Shown here piece after piece: positions 1 to 34,255 of a stretch of 34,255 nt of DNA (positions are counted from its first letter, which is position 1; every line of letters starts with the position of its first letter). The notes under the pieces are model-generated. The model was not told where the DNA came from and did no database searches. It saw only the letters and a list, made by a program, of their open reading frames with translations. This stretch comes from a virus. Location of the stretch: IMG/VR virus record IMGVR_UViG_3300027863_000011, positions 1 through 34,255 of that record, one strand, 5' to 3'. The translations under genes and the position numbers were made by a program.

Positions 1-402
1 AGCCATCTCCCGGATTTTGCTCTCCAGGCTCACGGGCACCAGGTAACCCCCGGCGGGGTCGGAACCCTTGTACAGGTCACGAGACTCGACCACGTTCCTC
101 CCGGCGCGAAGGAAGGCGTAAAAGGCGTCGCGGTACTCCCTGGTTTCGCTCACCCGCACCTCCGGGGCTTCGGGCTCGTTCAGGACCCGCGCCTCCTCGT
201 CCAGCACCGCGCGAGTAGCGGCCTCCACGCGCTCGATAGCCTCAATCTGCTCGCGGAGAGAGCGGGCCTCTTCCTCCATGCGGTCAAAGGTCTCCTTCGC
301 CTCGCCGGAGAATTCACGCCCCTCCTTCTCCAGCCGCTCCAGGTACCCGCGCATCTCGTTAACCAGGTTGGCGTATTTGCGTCGCAGGTCTCTTGCGTCC
401 AT
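1..402 (-). CDS. Major capsid protein (HK97 fold), N-terminal part with coiled-coil delta-like region; continues across the circular junction into 33352..34255
   Basis: Minus-strand ATG at 402, 5-6 nt downstream of GGAGG. My translation is MDARDLRRKYANLVNEMRGYLERLEKEGREFSGEAKETFDRMEEEARSLREQIEAIERVEAATRAVLDEEARVLNEPEAPEVRVSETREYRDAFYAFLRAGRNVVESRDLYKGS. It runs off position 1 and overlaps the start of ORF 33352..34221. It is in frame once the 127-nt overlap is collapsed (1179 nt in total). Confidence 0.85.
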   Translation of the reverse strand, partial: MDARDLRRKYANLVNEMRGYLERLEKEGREFSGEAKETFDRMEEEARSLREQIEAIERVEAATRAVLDEEARVLNEPEAPEVRVSETREYRDAFYAFLRAGRNVVESRDLYKGSDPAGGYLVPVSLESKIREMA

Positions 403-8275: not shown

Positions 8276-11083
8276 TCACCATTCCAGGCCTATCTGGTCC
8301 GCCGCCGACGGGGGCTTACCCCCTATCCCGCTTGCGTCGCCTGCGCCGCACGCCACCTCGGCTACGTCAGCTATGCCCGCATCGCCCGCATCGCCCGCAT
8401 CGCCCGCGTCGCCTGCGTCGCCCGCTACGCCCGCTACGCCCGCTACGCCCGCATCGCCTGCTACGTCTACGTCGCCTGACGGCATGAACCCGTAGCGATA
8501 TACCTTGGCATGTCCATCCCAGGTGACATACATCCCGAACAGGCGGGAAAGGTTCCTCTCGTGTGCCAGGAGGGCCTCCCCGAACCGGTGGGGGGTGATT
8601 ACCTTTCCGGCCCGGTCCCGAAGGGCACGCCCCCCTCCGTAATATGTGGTGAGCTCCTCCAGCAGCTCACGCGCGGTCAGGCTCCGGGGGGCGCCGCTTT
8701 GGTCTATATGGCGCCCGTCGGAAATCCATAGCCGAAGGACGTCTATCGCCGGTATGCTCTGGGCGGAGAATGTGGATGCCTGGGTGTAGGTCTTCACCAT
8801 TAGGTCATCCCAAACCTCCTCCTCAAAGCCCGCCGCAAGGAACAGCCCCTTTGCCAGGCTCATGAACTCGGATTGCCGGTGGCGCGTTTCCACGGCCTGC
8901 CTCGCCTGGTGCCAGTTCTTCGCCGCAAGGGAGAAGATGTAATGCAGGATGGCGTTTCGGCACTTCTGGATAGGTTCGTATACATGGTCTTCCCGCCGCC
9001 GTTTCTTCTCGCTTAGCTGGCTCAGCTCGAAGAACACCGCGCGGGTGACAACGTCATGTCGGTATTTATAGGCGGCGCCGTGCATGCTGGTGGTGATGAT
9101 ACCTGGGGTAGGGGTGATTTGAACACTGTCGAAATCTGTGTACAGTTTACGCTTTTCGTAGGCACTGCCGGTTATGACCGCCGCCAGGGCGTCGTGCAGG
9201 CCCCGGATGGTGGCGGTCTCCAGGTTGTCCAGGCACACCAGCCATCCCCTTTCCAGCATGACCCACAGGTCGTCGAGGTTTGGCGGCAGTTGCCGTACCC
9301 CCCAGCCATCCCCTACCAGGAGCCGACCGATGCTCCTGGCCAGGGTGGTCTTCCCGCTGTCGGCTTCCCCTATGATGCACAGGATAGGAGGCCGTATCCG
9401 GGCCGCCAGGCCCACCGGGAGAGCAAGGATGAGGGCCATGAGGAGGGTAGAATAGTCATCTTTCCGAAAGACCGGCCCGTCCTTCCAAGGCCAGGAATTG
9501 CAGAATACATGCAACATAGTTTCCCCGAAGCCCCCCAGCCGGGGCGGCTTGCCTATCGGGCTTAAGCCGGGCTCCGAGCGGAAGAGGACGCCGTCCGCCC
9601 CGTTAGGGAGGAGGTGGGGCTCCCCGGTCCCTAAATCCCACCTCCACATGGTCCCGTCCCCGTTGTCGCGGTAGATGCCCCGTTCGTTTATGCAGGCGAC
9701 GCGGTGCAGGTCGACCGCGCGCCCTTCGTTTAGGCCGCAGAGGCGCAGGTGCTGATAGACGTATCCGAAAAGGGCCTCCTCCGCGGGATTAAGCCCGAAC
9801 TCGAAGAGGATACGCTCGAAAGGCTGCCCCGGGCCGATGGAGGGGGGCATGGGAATGACCTGGTGGGTTTCCCGGCTGAAGTAGAAAACCCCGCCATCGG
9901 GGCGGTTTTCGGTGAGGAACTCCCCCGCATCCCTTAAGGCGGCCTGTATCTCTTCGGCTATCCTGCGTTTCACCTGCCGGGCGGCCCTCCCACCCGAAAG
10001 GTATTTTTGGATGCGGCCCCCCACGATTTGGGGCGAATGGGGGGTCAGCCGCTTCATGTTCTCGTTCAGGATGTCGGAAAGGTAGGTTCGGAATTCCTGG
10101 ATGACCTCTTCGCGGGCGGCGTATCGGTTCCGCTTGTATAGAAAAGCCCACAGGTCCCCCAGGTCTTTTACCCCCGGAAAAGGGGGCGTCCAGAGGTGCA
10201 GGTAGACTTCCCGGCCCCCGGAGGCGATTTCTTCCGCCCAGCGGCGGGCAGCCTCGGCCCCAGCGGGGTCGGCGTCATACAGAAAGTGGATTTCCTTGCT
10301 CGTGTCGAAATAGCGTACCGCGGGGGCGGGGTTGTAACCGGCCGCCCCCACGGATACGGCGGGCATCCCCCCGATATACCACAGGATGTCGGCATCCTTT
10401 TGACCTTCGGTAAAGAATATCTTGTCACTCCACAGGACCCCGCTTTCCGGGATGTAGAGGCCGTGCCCGTGGCCTTCTGGGGGGTTCTCCCCGCCCTTGA
10501 TGATAATGAACTTCGGGCCGGTGCCGTTGACCACCGCCCGGCCGAAAAGGCAGCAGGTTTTGTATTCGTCATTTATCTTTACGAAGTGAGGATAGATGTA
10601 CCGATAATCGAAGCATTGGGGCCAGCGGCGGGAGGCCCAGAGCTCTTCCGCGTTTTCTATCAGGTTCTTTTCGGCGGCCTCCCGCAGAATCTCCCTTGAA
10701 ATGATGCTGTCCAAGAAGAGGTGGGGTTTGTTGAGGGCCACCAAGCCGGTATCTTCCAGATATTTATAACCCGTTTTGTTCGGTTTTTTGTCCCGGAGGG
10801 CCGCCAAGAGAAGGGCGTACAGGGTGTCGTCATAAGAAACGCTTTCCGGCATGTCCCCGGTCAGGTACCGAAGGAGGGTTTCCATGGACAAGGCGCGCCC
10901 CCCGACCATGCAGTTGTTCGAGTGGCATTTGAACAGGACGCGCCCGCCCTCCGCGGTAAAGAACCCCGCGCTGGGGTGCTGGTCTTCGTGAAAGGGGCAG
11001 CGTACCGAGTTTGGTGGGTGTGCAGGGTCTATTTCTTCGGGCCAGAGGTCGGCAATCCTTATGAGCAGGTCGCGGTCTTCCAT
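8276..11083 (-). CDS. Bifunctional DNA primase / P-loop helicase (CHC2 zinc finger + Toprim + P4/D5-like NTPase)
   Basis: CPFHEDQHPSAGFF...FKCHSNNC (CHC2 finger); FFTEGQKDADILW and FLYDADPAGAEAARRW (Toprim-like); IIGEADSGKTTLARSIG with WLVCLDNLE (Walker A/B). GGAGGAGG precedes the ATG at 11083. Confidence 0.88.
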   Translation of the reverse strand: MEDRDLLIRIADLWPEEIDPAHPPNSVRCPFHEDQHPSAGFFTAEGGRVLFKCHSNNCMVGGRALSMETLLRYLTGDMPESVSYDDTLYALLLAALRDKKPNKTGYKYLEDTGLVALNKPHLFLDSIISREILREAAEKNLIENAEELWASRRWPQCFDYRYIYPHFVKINDEYKTCCLFGRAVVNGTGPKFIIIKGGENPPEGHGHGLYIPESGVLWSDKIFFTEGQKDADILWYIGGMPAVSVGAAGYNPAPAVRYFDTSKEIHFLYDADPAGAEAARRWAEEIASGGREVYLHLWTPPFPGVKDLGDLWAFLYKRNRYAAREEVIQEFRTYLSDILNENMKRLTPHSPQIVGGRIQKYLSGGRAARQVKRRIAEEIQAALRDAGEFLTENRPDGGVFYFSRETHQVIPMPPSIGPGQPFERILFEFGLNPAEEALFGYVYQHLRLCGLNEGRAVDLHRVACINERGIYRDNGDGTMWRWDLGTGEPHLLPNGADGVLFRSEPGLSPIGKPPRLGGFGETMLHVFCNSWPWKDGPVFRKDDYSTLLMALILALPVGLAARIRPPILCIIGEADSGKTTLARSIGRLLVGDGWGVRQLPPNLDDLWVMLERGWLVCLDNLETATIRGLHDALAAVITGSAYEKRKLYTDFDSVQITPTPGIITTSMHGAAYKYRHDVVTRAVFFELSQLSEKKRRREDHVYEPIQKCRNAILHYIFSLAAKNWHQARQAVETRHRQSEFMSLAKGLFLAAGFEEEVWDDLMVKTYTQASTFSAQSIPAIDVLRLWISDGRHIDQSGAPRSLTARELLEELTTYYGGGRALRDRAGKVITPHRFGEALLAHERNLSRLFGMYVTWDGHAKVYRYGFMPSGDVDVAGDAGVAGVAGVAGDAGDAGDAGDAGDAGIADVAEVACGAGDASGIGGKPPSAADQIGLEW
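8372..8476. repeat. Tandem 9-bp repeat (about 11 units, consensus on the plus strand ATCGCCCGC / TACGCCCGC) inside the 3' end of the primase-helicase gene
   Basis: Read directly: tatgcccgc atcgcccgc x3 gtcgcctgc gtcgcccgc tacgcccgc x3 atcgcctgc tacgtc tacgtcgcc. It encodes ...DVDVAGDAGVAGVAGVAGDAGDAGDAGDAGDAGIADVAEVA.... Confidence 0.9.
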
Positions 11084-12586: not shown

Positions 12587-13639
12587 TCACCGCGGGCCTC
12601 CTTTTCGTTTGATGAATAGGCGTTTGAATGTTTCTTTTCCACTCAAATATGACCCTCTTCCATATATACCATTGGGGTCTTGGTCGATGCCCTGATTTGA
12701 GCCCAAAATCTCGAACTGGTCAGGGTTATATTTATCCAAAAACGTAATCGGCACCCCCATAACCCCGTCGTAGTCGTAGGGTATCTCGGCGACTTTCGAC
12801 ACCTCGATGGCGTCGTAGTTGTCGTACTTGGGATACTTCTCCGGGTCGTAGCGCGCGTACAGGGTCAGCTCCTCGTGGCGCTTCGGGATGTCGAGGTTGG
12901 TGAACCAGCAAGCCATAATGTGTTTTACCCTTACTCCGTTTATAATTTTTTCACAAGCATAGTGTTTTGGGACAATGAACCACATATCCTGGTTGATATT
13001 TCTGTGTCCTATCCACAATTTGTTCTCTTTTATCAATGGGAATATTTCTTTATAGGTTATGGCGTTTTTGTTCCCAATTATCACGAACTTCTTCCCATAT
13101 TCCATAAGTTGCGCCACATACTCCCGGAACAGCGAGAAGGGCGGGTTGGTCACCACGATGTCGGCTTCTTTGAGCAGTTCCACGCACTCGGGGGAGCGGA
13201 AGTCCCCGTCTCCCTCCAACAGGGTCAGGGTGTTCTTCTTGTTCTTAATCAGCTGTTCCACGTCGGTAGGGCCAATTGCCCCATCTCCGGTCGTATCCGG
13301 GACTTCGGTTATTTCTACTTTGTAGGCCCTTTTTTCTTTTCCCCTTTTGTCCTCACCCTTGGGGCATTCCGCATCCAAGAGAGATAATTGTTTTTCCGCT
13401 ACGGGAGACCCGGCGTAGCTGGTGGTGATGAGCTTCTTTAGCCCCAAGTGGTTGAAGTTCAGGACGAAGTACCTAAAGAAGTTACTCTCGTAAGGGTCGT
13501 CACAATTGCAGTAGACCACTTTGTTGCGGAAATGTGGTTTGTAATGGCGCAGCTCCTCTTCAATGTCCTCCAGCCGAGTGTAGAACTCGTCCTGCTTGGC
13601 TTTTTTCGCCTTGTTTAGGGCCTTGTTGGTACTTCCCAC
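12587..13639 (-). CDS. Orphan N6-adenine DNA methyltransferase, EcoRI-methylase-like family
   Basis: KQDEFYTRLEDIEEEL...VVYCNCDDPYESNFFRYF...LGLKKLITTSY, and catalytic VVTNPPFSLF (motif IV NPPF). No adjacent nuclease ORF. GTG start at 13639. GC is visibly lower than its surroundings. Confidence 0.85.
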   Translation of the reverse strand: MGSTNKALNKAKKAKQDEFYTRLEDIEEELRHYKPHFRNKVVYCNCDDPYESNFFRYFVLNFNHLGLKKLITTSYAGSPVAEKQLSLLDAECPKGEDKRGKEKRAYKVEITEVPDTTGDGAIGPTDVEQLIKNKKNTLTLLEGDGDFRSPECVELLKEADIVVTNPPFSLFREYVAQLMEYGKKFVIIGNKNAITYKEIFPLIKENKLWIGHRNINQDMWFIVPKHYACEKIINGVRVKHIMACWFTNLDIPKRHEELTLYARYDPEKYPKYDNYDAIEVSKVAEIPYDYDGVMGVPITFLDKYNPDQFEILGSNQGIDQDPNGIYGRGSYLSGKETFKRLFIKRKGGPR

Positions 13640-14406: not shown

Positions 14407-14743
14407 GCAGCTGGCCGAGGCTATAGGTGTCCACCCAAACACTATCCGCCGGTGGGAGTTGGAGGGGGTGCTACGCCCTGCCCTTCGTCACGGGCGCGTG
14501 ATACGATATGATATAGACGAGGTTCGGAGGCAGCTACAACCCGAATTCCAAGATGCCGGTTTACAAACTGGGGCCAGGCAAATACAGCGCGGAAAAAACA
14601 TACCGGGGGTGGCGTTTCCATCGCCGCTTTCGAAGCCGGGAACAAGCAGAACGCGCCATCCGGGATTTCATGAATGCGGTCGACGCAGGGATTTGGGGAT
14701 GCCCGGAAATCCCAGACAAAACAACCCTCGGCGTTTTCCTTGA
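14390..14743 (+). CDS. xis: Excisionase / MerR-like HTH DNA-binding protein (end uncertain)
   Basis: MLVNRKQLAEAIGVHPNTIRRWELEGVLRPALRHGRVIRYDIDEVRRQL is a typical excisionase-family HTH. The ATG at 14390 overlaps the end of the regulator gene. The frame stays open 190 nt into int with a low-complexity tail. Confidence 0.55.
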   Translation: MLVNRKQLAEAIGVHPNTIRRWELEGVLRPALRHGRVIRYDIDEVRRQLQPEFQDAGLQTGARQIQRGKNIPGVAFPSPLSKPGTSRTRHPGFHECGRRRDLGMPGNPRQNNPRRFP

Positions 14744-15587
14744 TGGGTGGATTTCCTCCCGCTGGGAGGAGTGGAAACCTTCCACCGCCCGCTCGTACCT
14801 TTCCATCATGCGACGGGCGATGGCCGAGCTTGGCGATGTGCCACTGGAACAAGTCGGTCCCCACGACATACAAAGGTTCCTTGACGGGCTTCAAGTCTCC
14901 CCCAAGACAAAGAAGAACTACCGCCTCTTTTTGAGCAGCGCTTTCTCTGCGGCCTGCTCCCTCGGCCTTATAGACGAAAACCCCGTCCTGGACACCCGCC
15001 CGCCGAGAACCCATCGCAGGCCCCTGCACATCTTGAGCCCGGGGGAAGCCCGTTCTCTTCTGGAGGCGTTCCCGGACCCGCACGACCGGCAGCTGGTGGA
15101 GTTTGCCATGCTTACCGGCCTGCGCCGGGGGGAAATCTTCGCCCTTCAGTGGCGTGACCTCCAAGACGGTTCCGTGCACGTGGAGAGGACGCTCTCTGGG
15201 GGCCGGGAGGCCCTCCCCAAGGGCCGGAAGCGGCGGCGGGTGCCTCTCCCGGAGCATCTGTGGGTCGAGCTGGAGGCCCGCCGCGGGGAGCCGAACGAGC
15301 GGGTGTTCCCGGGGAACCCGGACACCTGGGTCAAACGGCGGTTCTCGCCCGCAGTTAGGCAGGCGGGCTTGGACGGGCTTCGGTTCCACGACCTTCGCCA
15401 CTTCTTCGCATCCTCCGCCATCCGGGCAGGGGTGGACATCCTGCGTCTCCAAACCTGGTTAGGCCACAGCTCTGCCCAGGTGACCCTCGACATCTACGGG
15501 CACCTCTTCCCCGCGGACGAGGCCTCCCTAATCGAGAGGTTGGCAAACGGATTACACCAAAATCACACCAGCGACCCCGGCAAATGA
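14553..15587 (+). CDS. int: Tyrosine recombinase (phage integrase)
   Basis: N-terminal arm-binding-like YKLGPGKYSAEKTYRGWRFHRRFRSREQAERA. Catalytic region LRRGEIFALQWRDL, FHDLRHFFASSAI and LGHSSAQVTLDIYGHLF. attP lies immediately downstream. Confidence 0.95.
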   Translation: MPVYKLGPGKYSAEKTYRGWRFHRRFRSREQAERAIRDFMNAVDAGIWGCPEIPDKTTLGVFLDGWISSRWEEWKPSTARSYLSIMRRAMAELGDVPLEQVGPHDIQRFLDGLQVSPKTKKNYRLFLSSAFSAACSLGLIDENPVLDTRPPRTHRRPLHILSPGEARSLLEAFPDPHDRQLVEFAMLTGLRRGEIFALQWRDLQDGSVHVERTLSGGREALPKGRKRRRVPLPEHLWVELEARRGEPNERVFPGNPDTWVKRRFSPAVRQAGLDGLRFHDLRHFFASSAIRAGVDILRLQTWLGHSSAQVTLDIYGHLFPADEASLIERLANGLHQNHTSDPGK

Positions 15588-15629: not shown

Positions 15630-15631
15630 TC

Positions 15632-15686
15632 TGGTAGCGGGGGGTGGATTCGAACCACCGACCTTCGGGTTATGAGCCCGATGCGC
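15632..15686 (-). other. attP core: 3' portion of a tRNA-Met(CAU) gene (anticodon stem-loop, variable loop, T arm, acceptor 3' strand, CCA)
   Basis: The reverse complement reads TCGGG-CTCATAA-CCCGA-AGGTC-GGTGG-TTCGAAT-CCACC-CCCCGCT-A-CCA. The GGG/CCC anticodon stem is initiator-like. No D arm or 5' acceptor strand is present upstream, so it is a fragment, as expected for a phage that integrates into a tRNA gene. Confidence 0.8.
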
Positions 15687-15780
15687 GCTCTCCTCCCTTA
15701 TCGGGCTTGGCCTGCTATTTTGCTCTTTACGAGCGCTTTTACGCTTGGTGCCTAAACCAGGAATAACCATAAAATACTAT

Positions 15781-15813
15781 AAAATCACACCAAAATCACA
15801 CCAAAATCACACC
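15781..15813. repeat. Three tandem 11-bp repeats AAAATCACACC (candidate integrase arm-type sites); a fourth copy at 15559-15569
   Basis: Read directly: aaaatcacacc x3 at 15781-15813, with the same 11-mer at 15559-15569 on the other side of the tRNA core. All are in the same orientation. Confidence 0.7.
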
Positions 15814-15872
15814 AACCTCGTGTCGGGCTTGGGGGGCACCAGAGGTCCTTCTTCCTTAGTGAAGGGGCGGGG

Positions 15873-16916
15873 TTAAATCCGGGGTGAGGAGATTAGCTCC
15901 CCAAGTGAGGGGAAATCATTCAGGAGACGAATAGATTTCTGGGGCTTTGTGGGGCGTAGGAGGTCTTCCTTGATTTTCTCCACGCATTCCTCCAAGCTGT
16001 GCGCCAAGTAAGTGGAGAGCCAAGTCACCCACGGGTTGTCATAGCCGGGAGGGACATATACATAAGTAGGCTTACCCAGCATCTTGGCGAAGAACAGCTC
16101 ACTCACGGTTCCGGCGCGGACATCGTGTATTTGGGTGAGGTTCACGAGCAGGGCGTCCGACCGGAGGACCGCACTCAAATCCCGGCGGACCAGCTCTTTT
16201 ACGTCATCGGGTTCGTCCACGGTGGGGTCGATACAATAGAAAACCGGGCCAAGCAACCGCTTGGCCCGGTTTCTCCAGCCTTGCGCCTGTCTCGCGGTTA
16301 AGTTGAAAATCCCTCCCGAAAGATAGACCATGGCCTTCGCCCGGTTGGGGGAAGGGGGGAACCCGCAGTCCTCAAGGAGCCGCACGACCATCCGGCGGGC
16401 CTCGTCAATCGAGATCCCGTCGGTATGGAAACGAAAATCCCACCCCTCCCACGTATCCAGCGCGGTCTCGCTGCTGTGGTCTGCCGGGAGCGTCAACCCC
16501 GCGGCTTGGGCGCGCCGCCTCCGCTCGTCATCGGAAGCGTCAAGTCGTACAGTGACGAAGTCCCCCGCCTCCTGGAGCCGCATTATCTCGTTCGGGAAAC
16601 GGCAGTCGTCGATGGCTATGAGGGGACGCCCCGCCTTTTCCCAACGCCGGATGAGGTGGTTTATCCACACATCCGGGTCTATGCTCCTCGCCACCTCGGT
16701 TCCGAAGCGTTGTAGTATCCTGCGGTGTTTGGCTTTTTGTGCGGGGTCAAAAAAGTCGATGCCGAAGATTTCTCCAGCGTACCGCTTTACGGGTTCGGCG
16801 AAGGACCACCTCTCGAAATCGGGGTTTACTTCGCATACGAGTTCAGCCCAGGTCGTCTTTCCGGAGGCGGCTTTCCCCCCGAAGATGATACCGTCTGGCA
16901 AGGCCCCTCCTTCCAT
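15873..16916 (-). CDS. Fusion protein: dNMP kinase-like P-loop domain + nucleoside 2-deoxyribosyltransferase/dNMP N-hydrolase-like domain
   Basis: N-terminal half: FGGKAASGKTTWAELV, FAEPVKRYAGEIFG, RRILQRFGTEVARSIDPDVWINHL, IDDCRFPNEI (phage dNMP kinase pattern). C-terminal half (aa ~195-315): MVYLSGGIF...W...DL..VLRSDALLVNL...GTVSELFFAKMLGKPTYVYV (Nuc_deoxyrib_tr-like pattern with the conserved Glu). Confidence 0.7.
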   Translation of the reverse strand: MEGGALPDGIIFGGKAASGKTTWAELVCEVNPDFERWSFAEPVKRYAGEIFGIDFFDPAQKAKHRRILQRFGTEVARSIDPDVWINHLIRRWEKAGRPLIAIDDCRFPNEIMRLQEAGDFVTVRLDASDDERRRRAQAAGLTLPADHSSETALDTWEGWDFRFHTDGISIDEARRMVVRLLEDCGFPPSPNRAKAMVYLSGGIFNLTARQAQGWRNRAKRLLGPVFYCIDPTVDEPDDVKELVRRDLSAVLRSDALLVNLTQIHDVRAGTVSELFFAKMLGKPTYVYVPPGYDNPWVTWLSTYLAHSLEECVEKIKEDLLRPTKPQKSIRLLNDFPSLGELISSPRI

Positions 16917-16919
16917 TCG

Positions 16920-17081
16920 TCACTCCCCGGGAGAGGGGAACAGGTACCCTATGGCTGCCCCGACCGCCAGCGTTATGATGGGCAGGCCGACGTCCGCCGG
17001 GACCCTCCCGGCCACCATCAAGACCACTACGGCTACCAAGCAGAGTAGCGTCAAGACAAAAGCCGCCAGCGTCTTGTCCAT
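16920..17081 (-). CDS. Small membrane protein (53 aa, two TM helices), not in the ORF track
   Basis: MDKTLAAFVLTLLCLVAVVVLMVAGRVPADVGLPIITLAVGAAIGYLFPSPGE. GGAGG lies 9 nt upstream of the ATG at 17081 (an in-frame ATG at 17087 is also possible). It fills the gap between two coupled genes. Confidence 0.55.
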   Translation of the reverse strand: MDKTLAAFVLTLLCLVAVVVLMVAGRVPADVGLPIITLAVGAAIGYLFPSPGE

Positions 17082-17105
17082 CGACATTCACCTCCTTTCT
17101 CCGGG

Positions 17106-18206
17106 TCAGTAATCCTGCGTTCGCACGATGTACCACGTCATCCAGTGGGTGGTGATTTTTGCCAGGCCACGCTCATCGGGCGTCAGCTCTATGAGCAGGC
17201 CGCAGATGTCGGGCCACAGGCCCTTCCGCCTCAAATAAGGGGTTTGGGCCTGGAATGCCCCGATGGAGAACATCTCCACGTTCCGGCACATGGGCACGTG
17301 GCAGGGCACATGCCAATGCCCCACCAGACCGACGTGCGGCTTTCTTTCCGGCGGGTACCCTTCCGCTATCTTCTGGAGGCGGTAACTGCGCGCGTACGCC
17401 TGGCCGCCGTCGGCGTGCATCATGTGCACGAGAATGGCCCCCATTTGGAGATACGCCCCGAAGTCTCCCAGGTATTTTATGTCTTCCCTTTCGCACGCCA
17501 CGGCCTCCACTATGTTCGCCCCTCCCCCCTTCACAAAGGAGTAATCGTGATTTCCGGCGATTACGAGGGTTTCCACCCCAGGCTCGTATGGGTAGTTCTC
17601 CACTACCGCCTTTTTCTGGGCATCGAAGCCGTGGGCGTAAACCTCGTATTGCTGGCCTTTGTAGACGTCGATGCCGTCTACCAGGTCTCCGCAATGGAGC
17701 ACGAGGCTTATGCGATGCTCGGAGCAATATTTGTAAAACTCCCGCAAAGCTGTCAGTTGCTGGTAAATGCTCCCAAAGTGCGTGCAGGCCACCACGCCGA
17801 GCCTTATCGGCTTTCCTTTCACGAAGCGGTCGATGCAAACCTCCGTATCTGTCCGCGTCGGCTCCTCTACCACGACCTTCTTTCCCCGCCTGGATAGTTC
17901 TTCCAGTAAGACGATGTCATCCAGCGCGCTCAAGGTGATGTCCTGTGCTTTGTTCCTGGTTGGCCCCCCGGGCTTTCGCGTACGGCGGAGGTAGTATTCG
18001 ACTTGGCGACGGCACCGGGGGCCACAGTATGCCTTGTGGGGATGGACGGGGTCAAACGGGAAGGTGTTTTGGCAGAGGCCGTACTTCGACGCTTGGCATG
18101 GGATGGGGGTTCCTGCGGGGATGGCGGTCTCCTCCTCCTTTTCCTCCTGGTTCTCCTTGACCCCGGATTCGGGCGGGGTGTAATCCCACCAGGATTCGCT
18201 TTCCAT
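17106..18206 (-). CDS. Calcineurin-like metallophosphoesterase with N-terminal Cys-rich (zinc-ribbon-like) region
   Basis: LHCGDLVDG (motif II), VIAGNHDYS (GNHD), VHMMHADGG and LVGHWHVPCH (GH-x-H). N-terminal CQASKYGLCQ...AYCGPRCRRQ. GGAGGTGAAA precedes the ATG at 18206 (the track starts at GTG 18212). Confidence 0.8.
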   Translation of the reverse strand: MESESWWDYTPPESGVKENQEEKEEETAIPAGTPIPCQASKYGLCQNTFPFDPVHPHKAYCGPRCRRQVEYYLRRTRKPGGPTRNKAQDITLSALDDIVLLEELSRRGKKVVVEEPTRTDTEVCIDRFVKGKPIRLGVVACTHFGSIYQQLTALREFYKYCSEHRISLVLHCGDLVDGIDVYKGQQYEVYAHGFDAQKKAVVENYPYEPGVETLVIAGNHDYSFVKGGGANIVEAVACEREDIKYLGDFGAYLQMGAILVHMMHADGGQAYARSYRLQKIAEGYPPERKPHVGLVGHWHVPCHVPMCRNVEMFSIGAFQAQTPYLRRKGLWPDICGLLIELTPDERGLAKITTHWMTWYIVRTQDY

Positions 18207-18234
18207 TTTCACCTCCCGTGTTTCAGGGAACTGA

Positions 18235-18549
18235 TTACTGGAGAAGGGCGGGGCGCACCAAAAGCGTGCCGGTGCACACCGTATGGGTATCCCCCACTTC
18301 CGAGGTTACTTCAGCCTCATGGTTGTATTTTCCAGGTGTGAGAGTAGAGGTCTGCGTGTGAGACAGGCGGAAGTACATCTTGTTGGCATTTATGCTGTGG
18401 TGGCTGACGACAAGGACAGGGTCGCCTCCCTGGATGGGGGCGCATCCCCACCGCCCGGCGTAGCCGGTGAGGTCTGATAGGTCTTCCACGGTGACCTCTA
18501 TCTCCACATCGTCACCGACCACGATTTCCATATTCTGGTTTCTTTTCAT
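18235..18549 (-). CDS. Hypothetical protein (104 aa), beta-rich, possibly virion-associated
   Basis: GGGAGGAGACAAA precedes the ATG at 18549, with an ATGA start/stop overlap with the upstream ORF. MKRNQNMEIVVGDDVEIEVTVEDLSDL... reads like a small Ig-like/beta-sandwich protein. Confidence 0.5.
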   Translation of the reverse strand: MKRNQNMEIVVGDDVEIEVTVEDLSDLTGYAGRWGCAPIQGGDPVLVVSHHSINANKMYFRLSHTQTSTLTPGKYNHEAEVTSEVGDTHTVCTGTLLVRPALLQ

Positions 18550-18776
18550 TTTGTCTCCTCCCAAGTTCCCGAGAGCTTCAAGACGGCGGAGCCCCAGAGG
18601 GAGATGGTGGGCGTCGCCGTGCCTTGTATGCGTTGTTTAACCCAGGGCCCGCCCTTGCGTAGCTTCCTCAATGTGGGGATTTCGAAGAAGTCGGTAAAAC
18701 TTACCAGCCGCTTGAAGAACTTGTGCAGGCCCCGGAAGTAGAGAACCTGTTTAGTGGCAAGGTGTTGCTTGAGCAT
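18546..18776 (-). CDS. Hypothetical basic protein (76 aa)
   Basis: The ATG at 18776 abuts the TAA of the upstream beta-helix gene, and its stop overlaps the next ATG. Coding status is inferred mainly from the tight packing. Confidence 0.4.
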   Translation of the reverse strand: MLKQHLATKQVLYFRGLHKFFKRLVSFTDFFEIPTLRKLRKGGPWVKQRIQGTATPTISLWGSAVLKLSGTWEETK

Positions 18777-33351: not shown

Positions 33352-34255
33352 TTAGGAGTCGCTCGCCATCTGCAATACCTGCACGGCCTCGGTGATGAGC
33401 AGGTTCCCGTCAACGCGCTCGTTCACCCGGAACCCGATTTGCCCGCTCCCCGCGTACAGCTCCACCAGCTTCTGGATGGTGATGCCGAGACGGTCCTGCA
33501 CGCGGTAATTGGAGAAATCGCCGAAAGCGATTACCTTGGCGTCGGCCTCCAGGGTATCGGGCATGTAGGGGGAGGTGTACACCGGATAGCCGAGCAGCCT
33601 GGGCGGGTTAGTGATTTGCTGCTCCAGCGTCCACAGGTACTGCCCCACGTCGTTCTTGAGCAGGGAGACCGCCAAGGCTATGTCGGTGTGCATGAGCCAG
33701 ATGGCGCGGGACTTGTAGGCTTGCTTCAGCTTCCAGGGCAGGCTCTTGACCTCGTCGAAGGTTATGGCATTGGTGGCCGCCGCGGTCACTCCGACCTCCG
33801 CGCGCCCCAGGAACCCGGTGGGCTGGCCAGTGCCGGTGCCATTGATGAAGTAGTTCTCCTCGGCGACCCCCAGGCCCTGCCCGGACTTCTTGGCGATGTA
33901 AGCCTCCAGGTCCGTCGCGGCGTCCGCCAGCAGCTCCTCGCTGACCTTGATTATCCCACCTATCTTGTAAGCATCGAGCTGCACCACGCCGAAGGTCAGG
34001 TTAGCCTCGGTATAGGCCCCCTTTTCGGCGATGATACCGAACTGGGGGATGCTCGCCTCGACAGGTATCTTCTCCTTGGTCGAGGAGACCACCACCTCGG
34101 CAAACTGGCGGATGACGTTGAGTTCCGCAGCCATCTCCCGGATTTTGCTCTCCAGGCTCACGGGCACCAGGTAACCCCCGGCGGGGTCGGAACCCTTGTA
34201 CAGGTCACGAGACTCGACCACGTTCCTCCCGGCGCGAAGGAAGGCGTAAAAGGCG
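33352..34255 (-). CDS. Major capsid protein (HK97 fold), C-terminal part; the 5' end wraps to 1..402
   Basis: ...GGYLVPVSLESKIREMAAELNVIRQFAEVV...AEKGAYTEANLTFGVVQLDAYKIGGIIKVSEELLADA...NGTGTGQPTGFL...WLMHTD...LLGYPVYTSPYMP... is a typical HK97-family capsid sequence. The frame is open to the window end. Confidence 0.9.
   Translation of the reverse strand, partial: AFYAFLRAGRNVVESRDLYKGSDPAGGYLVPVSLESKIREMAAELNVIRQFAEVVVSSTKEKIPVEASIPQFGIIAEKGAYTEANLTFGVVQLDAYKIGGIIKVSEELLADAATDLEAYIAKKSGQGLGVAEENYFINGTGTGQPTGFLGRAEVGVTAAATNAITFDEVKSLPWKLKQAYKSRAIWLMHTDIALAVSLLKNDVGQYLWTLEQQITNPPRLLGYPVYTSPYMPDTLEADAKVIAFGDFSNYRVQDRLGITIQKLVELYAGSGQIGFRVNERVDGNLLITEAVQVLQMASDS
34129..34255. repeat. 127-nt exact copy of positions 1..127 (end overlap of a circular assembly)
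   Basis: Base-by-base comparison of both ends. Confidence 0.95.

What the first reader, a model, noticed from the sequence alone, without database searches (positions are those of the whole stretch)
15873..16916. Single polypeptide fusing a dNMP kinase to a nucleoside 2-deoxyribosyltransferase / dNMP N-hydrolase-like domain, at the att-proximal end of the genome
Residues 1-175 carry the phage dNMP-kinase pattern (GKAASGKTT, RRILQRFGTEVAR, IDDCRFPNE). Residues 195-315 carry the YLSGG...SDALLVNL...GTVSELxxAxxxGKP pattern of the deoxyribosyltransferase/Rcl(DNPH1) superfamily, including the catalytic-position Glu. I am not aware of this combination as a described enzyme.

Coupling base exchange or base removal on deoxynucleotides to phosphorylation suggests a compact nucleotide-pool editing device. 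Possible roles are feeding a non-canonical base into phage DNA, salvaging dNMPs from host DNA breakdown, or countering host nucleotide-depletion or nucleotide-signalling defences. It sits in the classical moron/accessory position next to attP, together with a tiny membrane protein and a phosphoesterase.
Basis: partly seen in the sequence, partly recalled or inferred. Interest (0 to 1): 0.65.

Follow-up and report, generated by a model that had tools for sequence, protein, structure and literature searches.

The report
Phage dNMP kinase fused to NDT-like domain
A temperate phage of an uncultured hot-spring actinobacterium encodes one protein that joins a deoxynucleotide kinase to a DNPH1/DmtZ-like base-cleaving domain, a pairing seen only once in billions of proteins and likely used to edit the pool of DNA building blocks, though its activity is untested.

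Summary
ORF 15873-16916 (-) encodes 347 aa. Residues 1-186 are a complete T4-gp1-type dNMP kinase. A 9-residue Pro-rich linker follows. Residues 196-322 are a complete NDT-superfamily domain with the Tyr198/Asp246/Glu273 triad, then a 25-residue disordered tail. The predicted fold matches bacterial NDTs, DNPH1/Rcl, MilB and the characterised phage enzyme DmtZ.

No confirmed second kinase-NDT fusion was found in any protein, viral-contig, metagenome, genome or GenBank phage survey. The fusion rests on one assembly, and its linker contains C6/C5 homopolymers, so a 1-nt assembly error is not excluded.

The concept has precedents:
- DmtZ, a dNMP hydrolase/phosphodeoxyribosyltransferase, is fused to a dUTPase-like enzyme in phage Wayne.
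- PfkB-PF05014 fusions occur in bacteria.
- Cluster AZ Arthrobacter phages conserve an unfused dNMP kinase and NDT-like gene in one block.
- T5 pairs its dNMP kinase with a dNMP-destroying enzyme to evade Kongming immunity.

The most likely role is dNMP-pool editing coupled to phosphorylation. Hydrolase versus transferase mode and base specificity are unknown. This is a new variant of a known kind.

Side finding: a sister subfamily of these NDT-like proteins is tightly linked to DpdA and preQ0 genes.

The parts
15873..16916 (-). Fusion ORF, 347 aa plus stop codon
   Evidence: ORF list. Identical protein P0001 in the database. Full-length AF2 model has pLDDT 85.9 and pTM 0.60.
16359..16916 (-). 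N-terminal dNMP kinase domain (residues 1-186). P-loop G14-T22, R65/Q69/G72-T73/R77, D104-x-R-F-P-N-E110, H147-x-S-E150.
   Evidence: phrog_139 E=1.4e-33. PF21448 29.2 bits, above the 27.1 cut-off. All family-invariant residues present. Family profile versus T4 gp1 1DEK E=1e-25.
16332..16358 (-). Linker PPSPNRAKA (residues 187-195). The DNA contains C6 and C5 homopolymer runs.
   Evidence: Free-standing kinases end here and free-standing NDT-like proteins begin at the following Met. pLDDT is below 50 at residues 190-192. Sequence read. Frameshift scenario worked out.
15951..16331 (-). C-terminal NDT-superfamily domain (residues 196-322). Y198, P231, D246, R267, G269-T270, E273 (codon 16098-16100), W296.
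   Evidence: PF05014 25.6 bits. 404 relatives. Family invariants W-R, P, G, E. PDB profile hits to NDT, YtoQ, BcmB, BlsM and Rcl. AF2 pLDDT 86.6. Foldseek against PDB and BFVD, including DmtZ.
15876..15950 (-). Unique C-terminal tail (residues 323-347), absent from all relatives
   Evidence: Alignment A5. pLDDT about 50. GC3 is 0.52, against 0.72-0.73 in the two domains.
16240..16273 (-). 15-bp hairpin followed by a U-run on the coding strand, inside the C-terminal domain coding region (about codons 215-226)
   Evidence: Terminator-like scan. RNA fold dG -33.7 kcal/mol, z=-4.7, 0 of 200 shuffles fold as well.
16920..17087 (-). 55-aa hydrophobic protein with two predicted TM segments, 3 nt upstream of the fusion ORF
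   Evidence: Hydropathy. No Pfam or PHROG hit.
17106..18212 (-). 368-aa calcineurin-like metallophosphoesterase with a Cys-rich N-terminal region
   Evidence: PF12850 and PF00149. phrog_7339 'DNA repair exonuclease' E=3e-8. Distant relatives L095 and L096 have no kinase or NDT-like neighbours.
15635..15698 (-). attP core: tRNA-Met(CAU) fragment lacking the D-arm. The 51-52-nt block at about 15631-15682 is identical to tRNA genes in Actinomycetota MAGs.
   Evidence: Rfam tRNA 37.5 bits. ARAGORN finds no intact tRNA. Exact matches in Geothermincolales and Solincola MAGs.
15773..15814 (+). Three tandem AAAATCACACCA-type repeats, with a fourth copy at 15551-15570. Candidate arm-type integrase sites.
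14553..15587 (+). Tyrosine integrase, convergent with the fusion gene
   Evidence: PF00589 E=1e-20

Best explanation
This is most likely a genuine bifunctional phage enzyme that acts on the deoxynucleoside-monophosphate pool.

The N-terminal domain is a T4-gp1-type dNMP kinase (dNMP + ATP -> dNDP). The C-terminal domain is an NDT-superfamily enzyme of the DNPH1/DmtZ kind. Glu273, positioned by Tyr198 and Asp246, attacks C1' of a deoxynucleotide, releases the base and forms a covalent deoxyribosyl-5-phosphate enzyme intermediate. That intermediate is resolved either by water (hydrolase mode: base + dR5P) or by another base (phosphodeoxyribosyl-transferase mode: a new dNMP). The two domains are independent folds on a flexible linker.

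The net effect is that the phage decides which dNMPs are phosphorylated back towards dNTPs and which are destroyed or converted. These dNMPs probably come from host DNA breakdown.

Shown here: both folds, the domain boundaries, and intact catalytic motifs. Inferred: dNMP rather than nucleoside substrates (from the fused dNMP kinase, the lack of the NDT 5'-OH Asp, and Arg267 in its place), and dual hydrolase/transferase capacity (from the family-invariant 'transferase' Pro231, as in DmtZ). Unknown: base specificity and which mode dominates. I rate hydrolase-dominant and transferase-dominant modes as roughly even.
For: Kinase half:
- phrog_139 E=1.4e-33, and PF21448 above its cut-off.
- All invariant residues present.
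- Family profile hits T4 gp1 1DEK at E=1e-25.

C-terminal half:
- 404 relatives, and the family is PF05014/PF15891.
- Invariant Y/D/E, P and W.
- The Glu aligns with the nucleophile of solved NDT/PDT, BcmB and BlsM.
- AF2 pLDDT 86.6. Foldseek hits NDT, DNPH1 and MilB and DmtZ at TM 0.62.
- Motif equivalents of DmtZ Tyr6/Pro57/Asn77/Glu103/Trp124 are present (criteria from PMC12884076, section 22).
- Position -6 from the Glu is Asp in nucleoside-specific NDT/PDT and Ser in the nucleotide glycosidases BcmB and BlsM (alignments). It is Arg267 here.

Fusion:
- Complete domains on both sides, uniform GC3, and a flexible linker.

Precedents for the logic:
- The DmtZ-DutZ fusion and DmtZ's dual activity.
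- The conserved unfused kinase plus NDT-like pair in Arthrobacter phages.
- DNK and Dmp co-occurrence.
Against: - No biochemical data exist.
- The C-terminal domain scores below Pfam's PF05014 cut-off. Characterised DmtZ scores lower still.
- The domain has no significant pairwise similarity to DmtZ.
- Neither the Ser of DNPH1/BcmB nor the Asp of NDT occupies position -6, so phosphate versus hydroxyl recognition is only inferred.
- Kinase linkage is not typical of either family. Only 1 of 87 NDT-like loci has a kinase within 6 kb, and none of 80 kinase loci has an NDT-like gene within 4 kb.
- The fusion is a singleton from one assembly.
- A strong hairpin plus U-run inside the C-terminal domain coding region could attenuate expression of that domain.
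Confidence: 0.55

Rival explanations
1. Transferase-to-kinase channel for a non-canonical or salvaged base. The C-terminal domain transfers deoxyribose-5-phosphate from an abundant dNMP to a free base (as DmtZ does with the Z base), and the fused kinase immediately makes the dNDP. This would feed a modified or salvaged nucleotide into DNA before replication.
For: - Fused enzymes usually catalyse consecutive steps, as in DmtZ-DutZ.
- The 'transferase' Pro is invariant in the family.
- T4-type dNMP kinases are the enzymes that handle hydroxymethyl-dCMP in T4 (established knowledge).
- A sister subfamily is tightly linked to 7-deazaguanine genes.
- Hutinet 2019 raised the possibility of undetected deoxyribosyltransferases.
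Against: - The window has no base-biosynthesis genes (no DpdA, QueC/D/E, YhhQ or PurZ-sized unexplained ORF) and no gene for eliminating a canonical dNTP.
- No DNA polymerase was found among the ORFs scanned, so the phage probably relies on the host polymerase.
- The window's domain belongs to the loop-less group, which is not DpdA-linked (2 of 31 groups against 21 of 31).
- An EcoRI-type methyltransferase already offers anti-restriction protection.
Confidence: 0.15
2. Built-in counter-defence. The C-terminal domain destroys dAMP or dIMP so that the phage's own dNMP kinase cannot be hijacked by Kongming-type immunity to make the dITP alarm signal. This would be functionally analogous to T5 Dmp.
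For: - Kongming is triggered by phage dNMP kinases. T5 Dmp, a dNMP-degrading enzyme, is the anti-Kongming factor, and DNK and Dmp co-occur in phage genomes.
- DmtZ shows that phage NDT-like enzymes can be dAMP-specific hydrolases.
- A physical fusion would guarantee co-expression of trigger and antidote.
Against: - Nothing is known about Kongming in the putative Geothermincolia host.
- Base specificity of the domain is unknown. DmtZ's adenine-reading Asp12 aligns with Phe204 here.
- NDT-like genes are not generally linked to dNMP kinases.
Confidence: 0.12
3. Classical nucleoside-level deoxyribosyltransferase (dN + base' <-> dN' + base) fused to a kinase, as a general salvage enzyme.
For: - The best Foldseek PDB hits are bacterial NDTs, such as 7o62 at TMt 0.77.
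- The 'transferase' Pro is present.
- Many sources name relatives 'nucleoside 2-deoxyribosyltransferase'.
Against: - The Asp that binds the 5'-OH in NDT/PDT is replaced by Arg267.
- The fused kinase is a dNMP kinase, not a deoxynucleoside kinase, so the product of a nucleoside-level reaction would not be its substrate.
Confidence: 0.08
4. Assembly artefact. These are two adjacent, slightly overlapping genes (kinase, then NDT-like from Met196) that were merged by a 1-nt error in the C6/C5 homopolymers of the linker.
For: - Only one assembly supports the fusion. L001 is 100% identical to the window over 5,975 bp.
- Deleting one C would end the kinase at the TAA at 16298 and leave an NDT-like ORF starting at the ATG at 16331. 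The alternative-frame ORF 16298-16408 appears, and the linker sequence.
- Met196 coincides with the start of free-standing homologues.
Against: - There is no convincing ribosome-binding site before Met196; GAAGG lies only 3 nt upstream.
- The frameshifted kinase would carry about 20 residues with no counterpart in free-standing kinases.
- Free-standing kinases end just where the linker begins, consistent with simple stop-codon loss.
- GC3 is uniform across the junction.
Confidence: 0.1

Closest known systems
DmtZ and the DmtZ-DutZ fusion (Gordonia phage Ghobes AOE44404.1; Arthrobacter phage Wayne ALY10777.1; PMC12884076, 2026)
   Same: It is a phage-encoded NDT-superfamily, DNPH1-like domain acting at the dNMP level. 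It has a Tyr/Asp(Asn)/Glu triad, the 'transferase' Pro and a Trp lid, all with positional equivalents here. In Wayne it is fused to another nucleotide-pool enzyme. The folds match at TM 0.62.
   Different: There is no significant sequence similarity. The fusion partner is a dUTPase-like dNTP pyrophosphatase (the upstream step), not a kinase (a downstream or competing step). DmtZ sits in PurZ0 Z-genome clusters, and the window has none. DmtZ's adenine-reading Asp12 is not conserved here.
DNPH1/Rcl 2'-deoxynucleoside 5'-phosphate N-hydrolase
   Same: It shares the fold and the catalytic Tyr/Asp/Glu. It has a pool-sanitising role, acting on hmdUMP in mammals (established knowledge).
   Different: DNPH1 has a phosphate-binding Ser at position -6 and, according to the DmtZ paper, lacks the transferase Pro. 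The window has Arg267 and Pro231. DNPH1 is free-standing.
T4 gp1 / T5-type phage dNMP kinases (PF21448, phrog_139)
   Same: The N-terminal half is a full-length member with all motifs.
   Different: Known members are free-standing proteins of about 180-300 aa. None of those surveyed here carries an NDT-like domain.
Cluster AZ / Liebevirus Arthrobacter phages: dNMP kinase - hypothetical - Cas4 exonuclease - DUF4406/NDT-like
   Same: A dNMP kinase and an NDT-superfamily protein are conserved together in one DNA-metabolism gene string next to the tail genes.
   Different: The genes are separate and lie 1.5-2 kb apart. The NDT-like protein is of the DUF4406 type (PF14359), a different family from the window's domain.
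PfkB (PF00294)-PF05014 fusions next to QueC cluster-4 genes in bacteria (PMC13329287)
   Same: A kinase is fused to an NDT-like domain.
   Different: The kinase is of the ribokinase/PfkB fold, not P-loop. The context is cellular, and these proteins were not examined here.
T5 DNK + Dmp (anti-Kongming pair)
   Same: A phage dNMP kinase is genetically coupled to an enzyme that destroys dNMPs.
   Different: Dmp is a 5'-nucleotidase (phosphatase), not a glycosidase, and the two genes are separate.

Membership tests
T4-gp1-type dNMP kinase (PF21448 / phrog_139) | Profile match above the curated threshold over the full domain | tested here: met
   The N-terminal half alone scores 29.2 bits against a cut-off of 27.1. 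phrog_139 E=1.4e-33 over residues 10-182.
T4-gp1-type dNMP kinase (PF21448 / phrog_139) | P-loop G-x4-G-K-[ST] plus the family motifs R-x3-Q-x2-G-T-x3-R, D-x-R-F-P-N-E and H-x-S-E | tested here: met
   All 18 invariant columns of alignment A4 are occupied by the consensus residue. The family profile aligns end to end with T4 gp1 1DEK at E=1e-25.
T4-gp1-type dNMP kinase (PF21448 / phrog_139) | ATP-dependent phosphorylation of dNMPs | not testable with these tools
   Needs an enzyme assay.
NDT superfamily (PF05014 clan: NDT/PDT, DNPH1, MilB/BcmB/BlsM, DmtZ) | Pfam PF05014 gathering score | tested here: not met
   25.6 bits against 28.8. Characterised DmtZ scores only 18.3 bits, so the cut-off is conservative for phage members. 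Relatives do pass it.
NDT superfamily (PF05014 clan: NDT/PDT, DNPH1, MilB/BcmB/BlsM, DmtZ) | Flavodoxin-like alpha/beta fold superposable on solved members | tested here: met
   AF2 pLDDT 86.6 and pTM 0.81. Foldseek hits 7o62 at E=1.5e-7 and TMt 0.77, plus 2a0k, 6evs, DNPH1 and MilB.
NDT superfamily (PF05014 clan: NDT/PDT, DNPH1, MilB/BcmB/BlsM, DmtZ) | Catalytic triad Tyr / Asp(Asn) / nucleophile Glu | tested here: met
   Y198, D246 and E273 are invariant or near-invariant in the family. The Glu aligns with the nucleophile in 7m5h, 2a0k, 4jen and 5vto.
Nucleoside 2-deoxyribosyltransferase sensu stricto (nucleoside substrates) | Asp six residues before the nucleophile Glu, which binds the 5'-OH | tested here: not met
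   This position is Asp in 7m5h and 2a0k (alignments). The window has Arg267.
DNPH1/Rcl-type dNMP N-hydrolase | Ser six residues before the Glu (phosphate binding), and absence of the water-excluding 'transferase' Pro | tested here: not met
   The window has Arg267 instead of Ser, and Pro231 is present and family-invariant. Criteria come from PMC12884076 section 22 and established Rcl structural work.
DmtZ (dAMP hydrolase / phosphodeoxyribosyltransferase) | Sequence-level family membership | tested here: not met
   BLASTP E=8.3, and hhalign probability 0.9%.
DmtZ (dAMP hydrolase / phosphodeoxyribosyltransferase) | Key residues Tyr6, Pro57, Asn77, Glu103, Trp124, and no Asp/Asn at the 5'-OH site | tested here: inconclusive
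   Positional equivalents Y198, P231, D246, E273 and W296 are present, and there is no Asp/Asn at position -6. The alignments are not statistically significant. The fold match to DmtZ is TM 0.62. Asp12, the adenine reader, is not conserved (Phe204).
DmtZ (dAMP hydrolase / phosphodeoxyribosyltransferase) | Genomic association with PurZ0, DutZ or DUF5664 | tested here: not met
   Pfam scans of all ORFs of 300 aa or more gave no PurZ or Dut hit. The only unassigned long ORFs lie in the tail module.
DpdA-linked NDT-like subfamily (found here) | D-P-M-R-R-D-Y-R-G loop, and an adjacent DpdA-like or preQ0 gene | tested here: not met
   The loop is absent in the window's domain. No DpdA, QueC, QueE or Vut_1 is present in the window. 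The association is 21 of 31 loop-bearing groups against 2 of 31 loop-less groups.

The most novel reading that the evidence does not exclude
The fusion is a self-contained two-step pathway for pre-replicative DNA modification. The C-terminal domain swaps the base of a canonical dNMP for a host-supplied non-canonical base, for example a 7-deazaguanine such as preQ0 or another purine analogue. The fused kinase commits the product towards the dNTP pool, and the host polymerase incorporates it. This would happen in a phage that has no DpdA, PurZ or base-synthesis genes. It would be a route that the field currently considers unproven, since all reported phage 7-deazaguanine modifications are held to be post-replicative (PMC10516641).
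Probability: 0.06. Interest if true: 0.85.

Novelty: new variant of a known kind. Interest (0 to 1): 0.5.

Why it matters
If the fusion is real and active, it ties a phage dNMP kinase physically to an enzyme that cleaves or swaps the base of deoxynucleotides. This touches two very recent discoveries.

First, phage NDT-like enzymes can work at the dNMP level as hydrolase/transferases (DmtZ, 2026). Second, phage dNMP kinases are a liability that bacterial immunity exploits (Kongming, 2024-26). A kinase carrying its own dNMP 'editor' would be a compact test case for how phages control which nucleotides re-enter the dNTP pool, whether for sanitation, immune evasion or modified-base synthesis. It would also be a candidate one-polypeptide biocatalyst for making modified dNDPs.

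The side finding may matter as much. A sister NDT-like subfamily sits immediately next to DpdA in about two-thirds of the loci examined, and it is not discussed in the two 7-deazaguanine papers consulted here. It is a candidate missing component of phage 7-deazaguanine DNA-modification systems.

Tried and rejected
1. 7-deazaguanine transfer to the window protein. Five of five first neighbourhoods of free-standing homologues contained DpdA-like, Que or YhhQ genes. Scoring 62 non-redundant loci showed the link is confined to the RRDYRG-loop subfamily (21/31) and is absent from the loop-less group containing the window's domain (2/31). The window's closest sub-clade (L089-L092) and the window itself have none. 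Rejected as a direct inference and kept as the low-probability novel case.

2. Search for other fusions. All of these gave no confirmed second example:
- word-indexed search with the whole protein
- exhaustive HMMER search with the C-terminal half
- two profile searches with precomputed Pfam architectures
- tblastn against 50,697 GenBank phages
- IMG/VR, JGI metagenome and GTDB genome scans
- 80 kinase loci
- BFVD structure searches

Longer NDT-like proteins carry DeoC, DUF3310, DUF7695 or unknown domains instead.

3. Bacillus phage Finn gp52, immediately after the dNMP kinase, is not NDT-like.

4. Functional linkage of the metallophosphoesterase. Its relatives have no kinase or NDT neighbours, and the SWEP2 'exonuclease' is PD-(D/E)XK, not homologous.

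5. Internal translation start at Met196. There is no convincing ribosome-binding site.

6. Alignment A2 was discarded because MAFFT placed the kinases on the C-terminal half. A6 was used instead.

7. Alignment-based locus searches with A1 and A5 failed for lack of conserved stretches.

8. Profile searches of the DpdA-like neighbour families against PDB sequences found nothing. Their identity rests on PHROG and depositor annotations.
Full report
**What is there.** The window is a complete circular phage genome. Its first and last 127 nt are identical, giving about 34.1 kb at 58-60% GC. Nearly all genes lie on the minus strand. TerL, portal and prohead protease wrap around the ends to the major capsid protein, tape measure, amidase and a beta-helix fibre. 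After these come a 109-aa protein (18235-18564), a 368-aa calcineurin-like phosphoesterase (17106-18212), a 55-aa two-TM protein (16920-17087) and the ORF in question (15873-16916). Gaps between these last genes are 3-22 nt.

Downstream lies a D-arm-less tRNA-Met(CAU) fragment (15635-15698; Rfam 37.5 bits; no intact tRNA by ARAGORN). It is flanked by four AAAATCACACCA repeats. A convergent tyrosine integrase, HTH regulators and an EcoRI-type adenine methyltransferase follow. The 48-nt tRNA core is found exactly in Geothermincolales, Solincola and other Actinomycetota MAGs. The host is therefore probably an uncultured hot-spring actinobacterium.

Residues 1-186 are a full dNMP kinase:
- phrog_139 E=1.4e-33
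- PF21448 at 29.2 bits, above its cut-off, for the half alone
- all 18 invariant columns of an alignment with free-standing homologues conserved
- the family profile aligning end to end with T4 gp1 (1DEK) at E=1e-25

Free-standing kinases end where a Pro-rich 9-residue linker begins. The next residue, Met196, coincides with the start of free-standing homologues of the C-terminal half.

Residues 196-322 score below the Pfam cut-off on PF05014 (25.6 against 28.8 bits). However, an exhaustive HMMER search of 1.84 billion representatives found 404 relatives. Nearly all are proteins of 120-150 aa whose family carries PF05014/PF15891. The family profile reaches solved NDT/PDT enzymes, YtoQ, the CMP N-glycosidases BcmB and BlsM, MilB, and Rcl/DNPH1. 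An AlphaFold2 model (pLDDT 86.6, pTM 0.81) matches bacterial NDTs, DNPH1 and MilB in the PDB and the characterised phage enzyme DmtZ in BFVD (TM 0.62).

Tyr198, Asp246 and Glu273 are invariant or near-invariant in the family. The Glu aligns with the nucleophile of the solved enzymes. DmtZ itself scores only 18.3 bits on PF05014, so the sub-threshold Pfam score is not evidence against membership.

The full-length model (pLDDT 85.9, pTM 0.60) shows two well-folded domains, a low-confidence linker (190-192) and a disordered tail (327-347). The last 25 residues have no counterpart in relatives and a lower GC3 (0.52 against 0.72-0.73).

**How rare is the fusion?** I found no confirmed second example. 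The searches were:
- the whole protein against 5.8 billion clusters
- the best-scoring 120-150 hits listed from each of the three C-terminal-domain searches
- 50,697 GenBank phages
- IMG/VR, JGI metagenomes and GTDB species genomes
- 80 viral loci with the closest kinase relatives
- 87 loci with NDT-like relatives, of which one had a kinase, 3.7 kb away

Longer NDT-like proteins carry other partners: DeoC aldolase, DUF3310, DUF7695, or an unknown N-terminal domain in mycobacteriophage MalagasyRose gp52. Two BFVD entries (A0A6J5RPH7 and A0A8S5VIY1) look as if they might be two-domain proteins of this kind. They did not reappear in the top 50 for the C-terminal domain alone, and their sequences could not be retrieved.

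The only other record of the protein is a JGI contig that is 100% identical to the window over 5,975 bp, so it is not independent. The linker DNA contains C6 and C5 runs. Losing one C would terminate the kinase at 16298 and leave a separate NDT-like ORF starting at Met196. I give this artefact about 10%. The arguments against it are the lack of a ribosome-binding site before Met196, uniform GC3, and clean domain boundaries.

**What it most likely does.** Three recent lines of work frame the interpretation.

(i) DmtZ (PMC12884076) is a phage NDT-superfamily enzyme that hydrolyses dAMP. [quoted passage not shown] In phage Wayne it is fused to a dUTPase-like dNTP pyrophosphatase. That paper's criteria are the Tyr/Asn(Asp)/Glu triad, a water-excluding Pro found in transferases, a Trp lid, and no Asp/Asn at the 5'-OH site. 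All have positional equivalents here: Y198, D246, E273, P231, W296, and Arg267 at the -6 position. The pairwise alignments are not statistically significant, though. In the alignments, position -6 is Asp in the nucleoside-specific NDT/PDT and Ser in the nucleotide-specific BcmB and BlsM. An Arg there, together with a fused dNMP kinase, favours nucleotide rather than nucleoside substrates. This step is inferred.

(ii) Cluster AZ/Liebevirus Arthrobacter phages conserve a dNMP kinase and a DUF4406-type NDT-like gene 1.5-2 kb apart in one string. PfkB-PF05014 fusions also exist in bacteria.

(iii) Kongming immunity hijacks phage dNMP kinases to make dITP. T5 escapes with Dmp, which destroys dNMPs, and DNK and Dmp co-occur in phage genomes.

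Together these support a bifunctional dNMP-pool enzyme. The C-terminal domain cleaves or exchanges the base of selected dNMPs via a Glu273 covalent intermediate, and the N-terminal domain phosphorylates dNMPs. Whether hydrolysis or transfer dominates, and on which base, cannot be decided from sequence.

**Rivals.**
- A transferase-to-kinase channel for a non-canonical base is attractive, because fused enzymes tend to catalyse consecutive steps and the transferase Pro is present. However, the phage has no base-synthesis, DpdA, PurZ or dNTP-elimination genes, and no DNA polymerase was found among the ORFs scanned.
- An anti-Kongming safeguard is plausible but rests on analogy only.
- A classical nucleoside-level NDT is disfavoured by Arg267 and by the type of kinase.
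- The 'moron' label is not supported. The gene ends a tightly packed same-strand string, and the simple sigma-70-type consensus scan found no promoter-like site directly upstream.

**Side finding.** Free-standing relatives that carry a conserved D-P-M-R-R-D-Y-R-G loop sit directly next to DpdA-like transglycosylases, with a median gap of 0 nt. They are often accompanied by QueC, QueD, QueE or YhhQ. This holds in 21 of 31 non-redundant loci, against 2 of 31 for loop-less relatives. The two neighbour families are homologous to each other (hhalign probability 94.8%). Their cultured-phage homologues are annotated as DpdA-like tRNA-guanine transglycosylase or queuine tRNA-ribosyltransferase. Term searches of the 2019 and 2023 phage 7-deazaguanine papers found no mention of such a partner. 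The window's domain lacks the loop, and the phage lacks these genes, so the link cannot be transferred to the window protein.

**Verdict.** This is a new architectural variant (dNMP kinase plus NDT-like domain) of a known kind of phage nucleotide-pool enzyme. It is seen once and is biochemically untested. Interest is 0.5.

Noticed in passing
L002-L008 and L009-L088 (e.g. L007:5513-7049; L003:5474-7033; L002:4924-6423): A sister subfamily of about 125-135-aa NDT-like proteins carries a conserved DPMRRDYRG loop. It sits immediately next to DpdA-like transglycosylases, often with QueC/D/E or YhhQ (Vut_1), in 21 of 31 non-redundant phage loci, against 2 of 31 for loop-less relatives. Term searches of the two main phage 7-deazaguanine papers found no mention of such a partner. 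It may be an unrecognised component of these DNA-modification systems.
   Followed up: partly
window 16240-16273 (-): A 15-bp hairpin (14 Watson-Crick pairs plus one G-U, 4-nt loop; dG -33.7 kcal/mol, z=-4.7) is followed by UUUUCUAUU on the coding strand. It lies inside the C-terminal domain coding region, about 60-90 nt after Met196. It looks like an intrinsic terminator or attenuator within the gene. Its function is unknown.
   Followed up: partly
window 1-127 and 34129-34255: The first and last 127 nt are identical. The window is therefore a circularly closed assembly of about 34,128 bp, and the capsid/protease module spans the junction.
   Followed up: yes
window 15551-15570, 15631-15698, 15773-15814: The attP anatomy comprises a tRNA-Met(CAU) 3' fragment without a D-arm and four AAAATCACACCA arm-type repeats. 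The 48-nt core matches tRNA genes of Candidatus Geothermincolales/Solincola and other Actinomycetota MAGs exactly, which suggests the host. No related prophage was found at those loci.
   Followed up: yes
window 15876-15950 (-): The last 25 codons of the fusion ORF have no counterpart in any relative, are predicted to be disordered, and have GC3 0.52 against 0.72 elsewhere. This looks like a read-through extension into formerly non-coding DNA next to attP.
   Followed up: partly
window 12587-13639 (-): An orphan EcoRI-family N6-adenine methyltransferase (PF13651, E=2e-139) lies beside the lysogeny module with no cognate endonuclease nearby. It is probably an anti-restriction function.
   Followed up: no
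window 8276-11083 (-): A 935-aa protein combines an N-terminal primase region (phrog_47) with a weak STAND/AAA-type NTPase signal at about residues 560-620. No DNA polymerase was found among the ORFs scanned.
   Followed up: no
L186:1856-2824 and L186:3018-3935 (Mycobacterium phage MalagasyRose gp52, gp54): gp52 is a 322-aa fusion of an unannotated N-terminal region of about 210 aa (no P-loop) with a DUF4406 NDT-superfamily domain. gp54, two genes downstream, carries a dATP/dGTP diphosphohydrolase N-terminal domain (PF18909). This is another uncharacterised NDT-like fusion in a nucleotide-pool context.
   Followed up: partly
BFVD entries A0A6J5RPH7 (297 aa) and A0A8S5VIY1 (294 aa): In the structure search with the full-length model, these viral proteins aligned in a way that suggests they could also combine a kinase-like and an NDT-like domain. 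The sequences could not be fetched to verify this.
   Followed up: no
L013, L050, L055, L070 and other loop-less NDT-like loci: Loop-less NDT-like genes recur near dATP/dGTP diphosphohydrolase N-terminal-domain genes (PF18909; 8 loci) and dCMP deaminases (15 loci). This echoes the DmtZ-DutZ/DUF5664 logic of dNTP to dNMP to base.
   Followed up: partly
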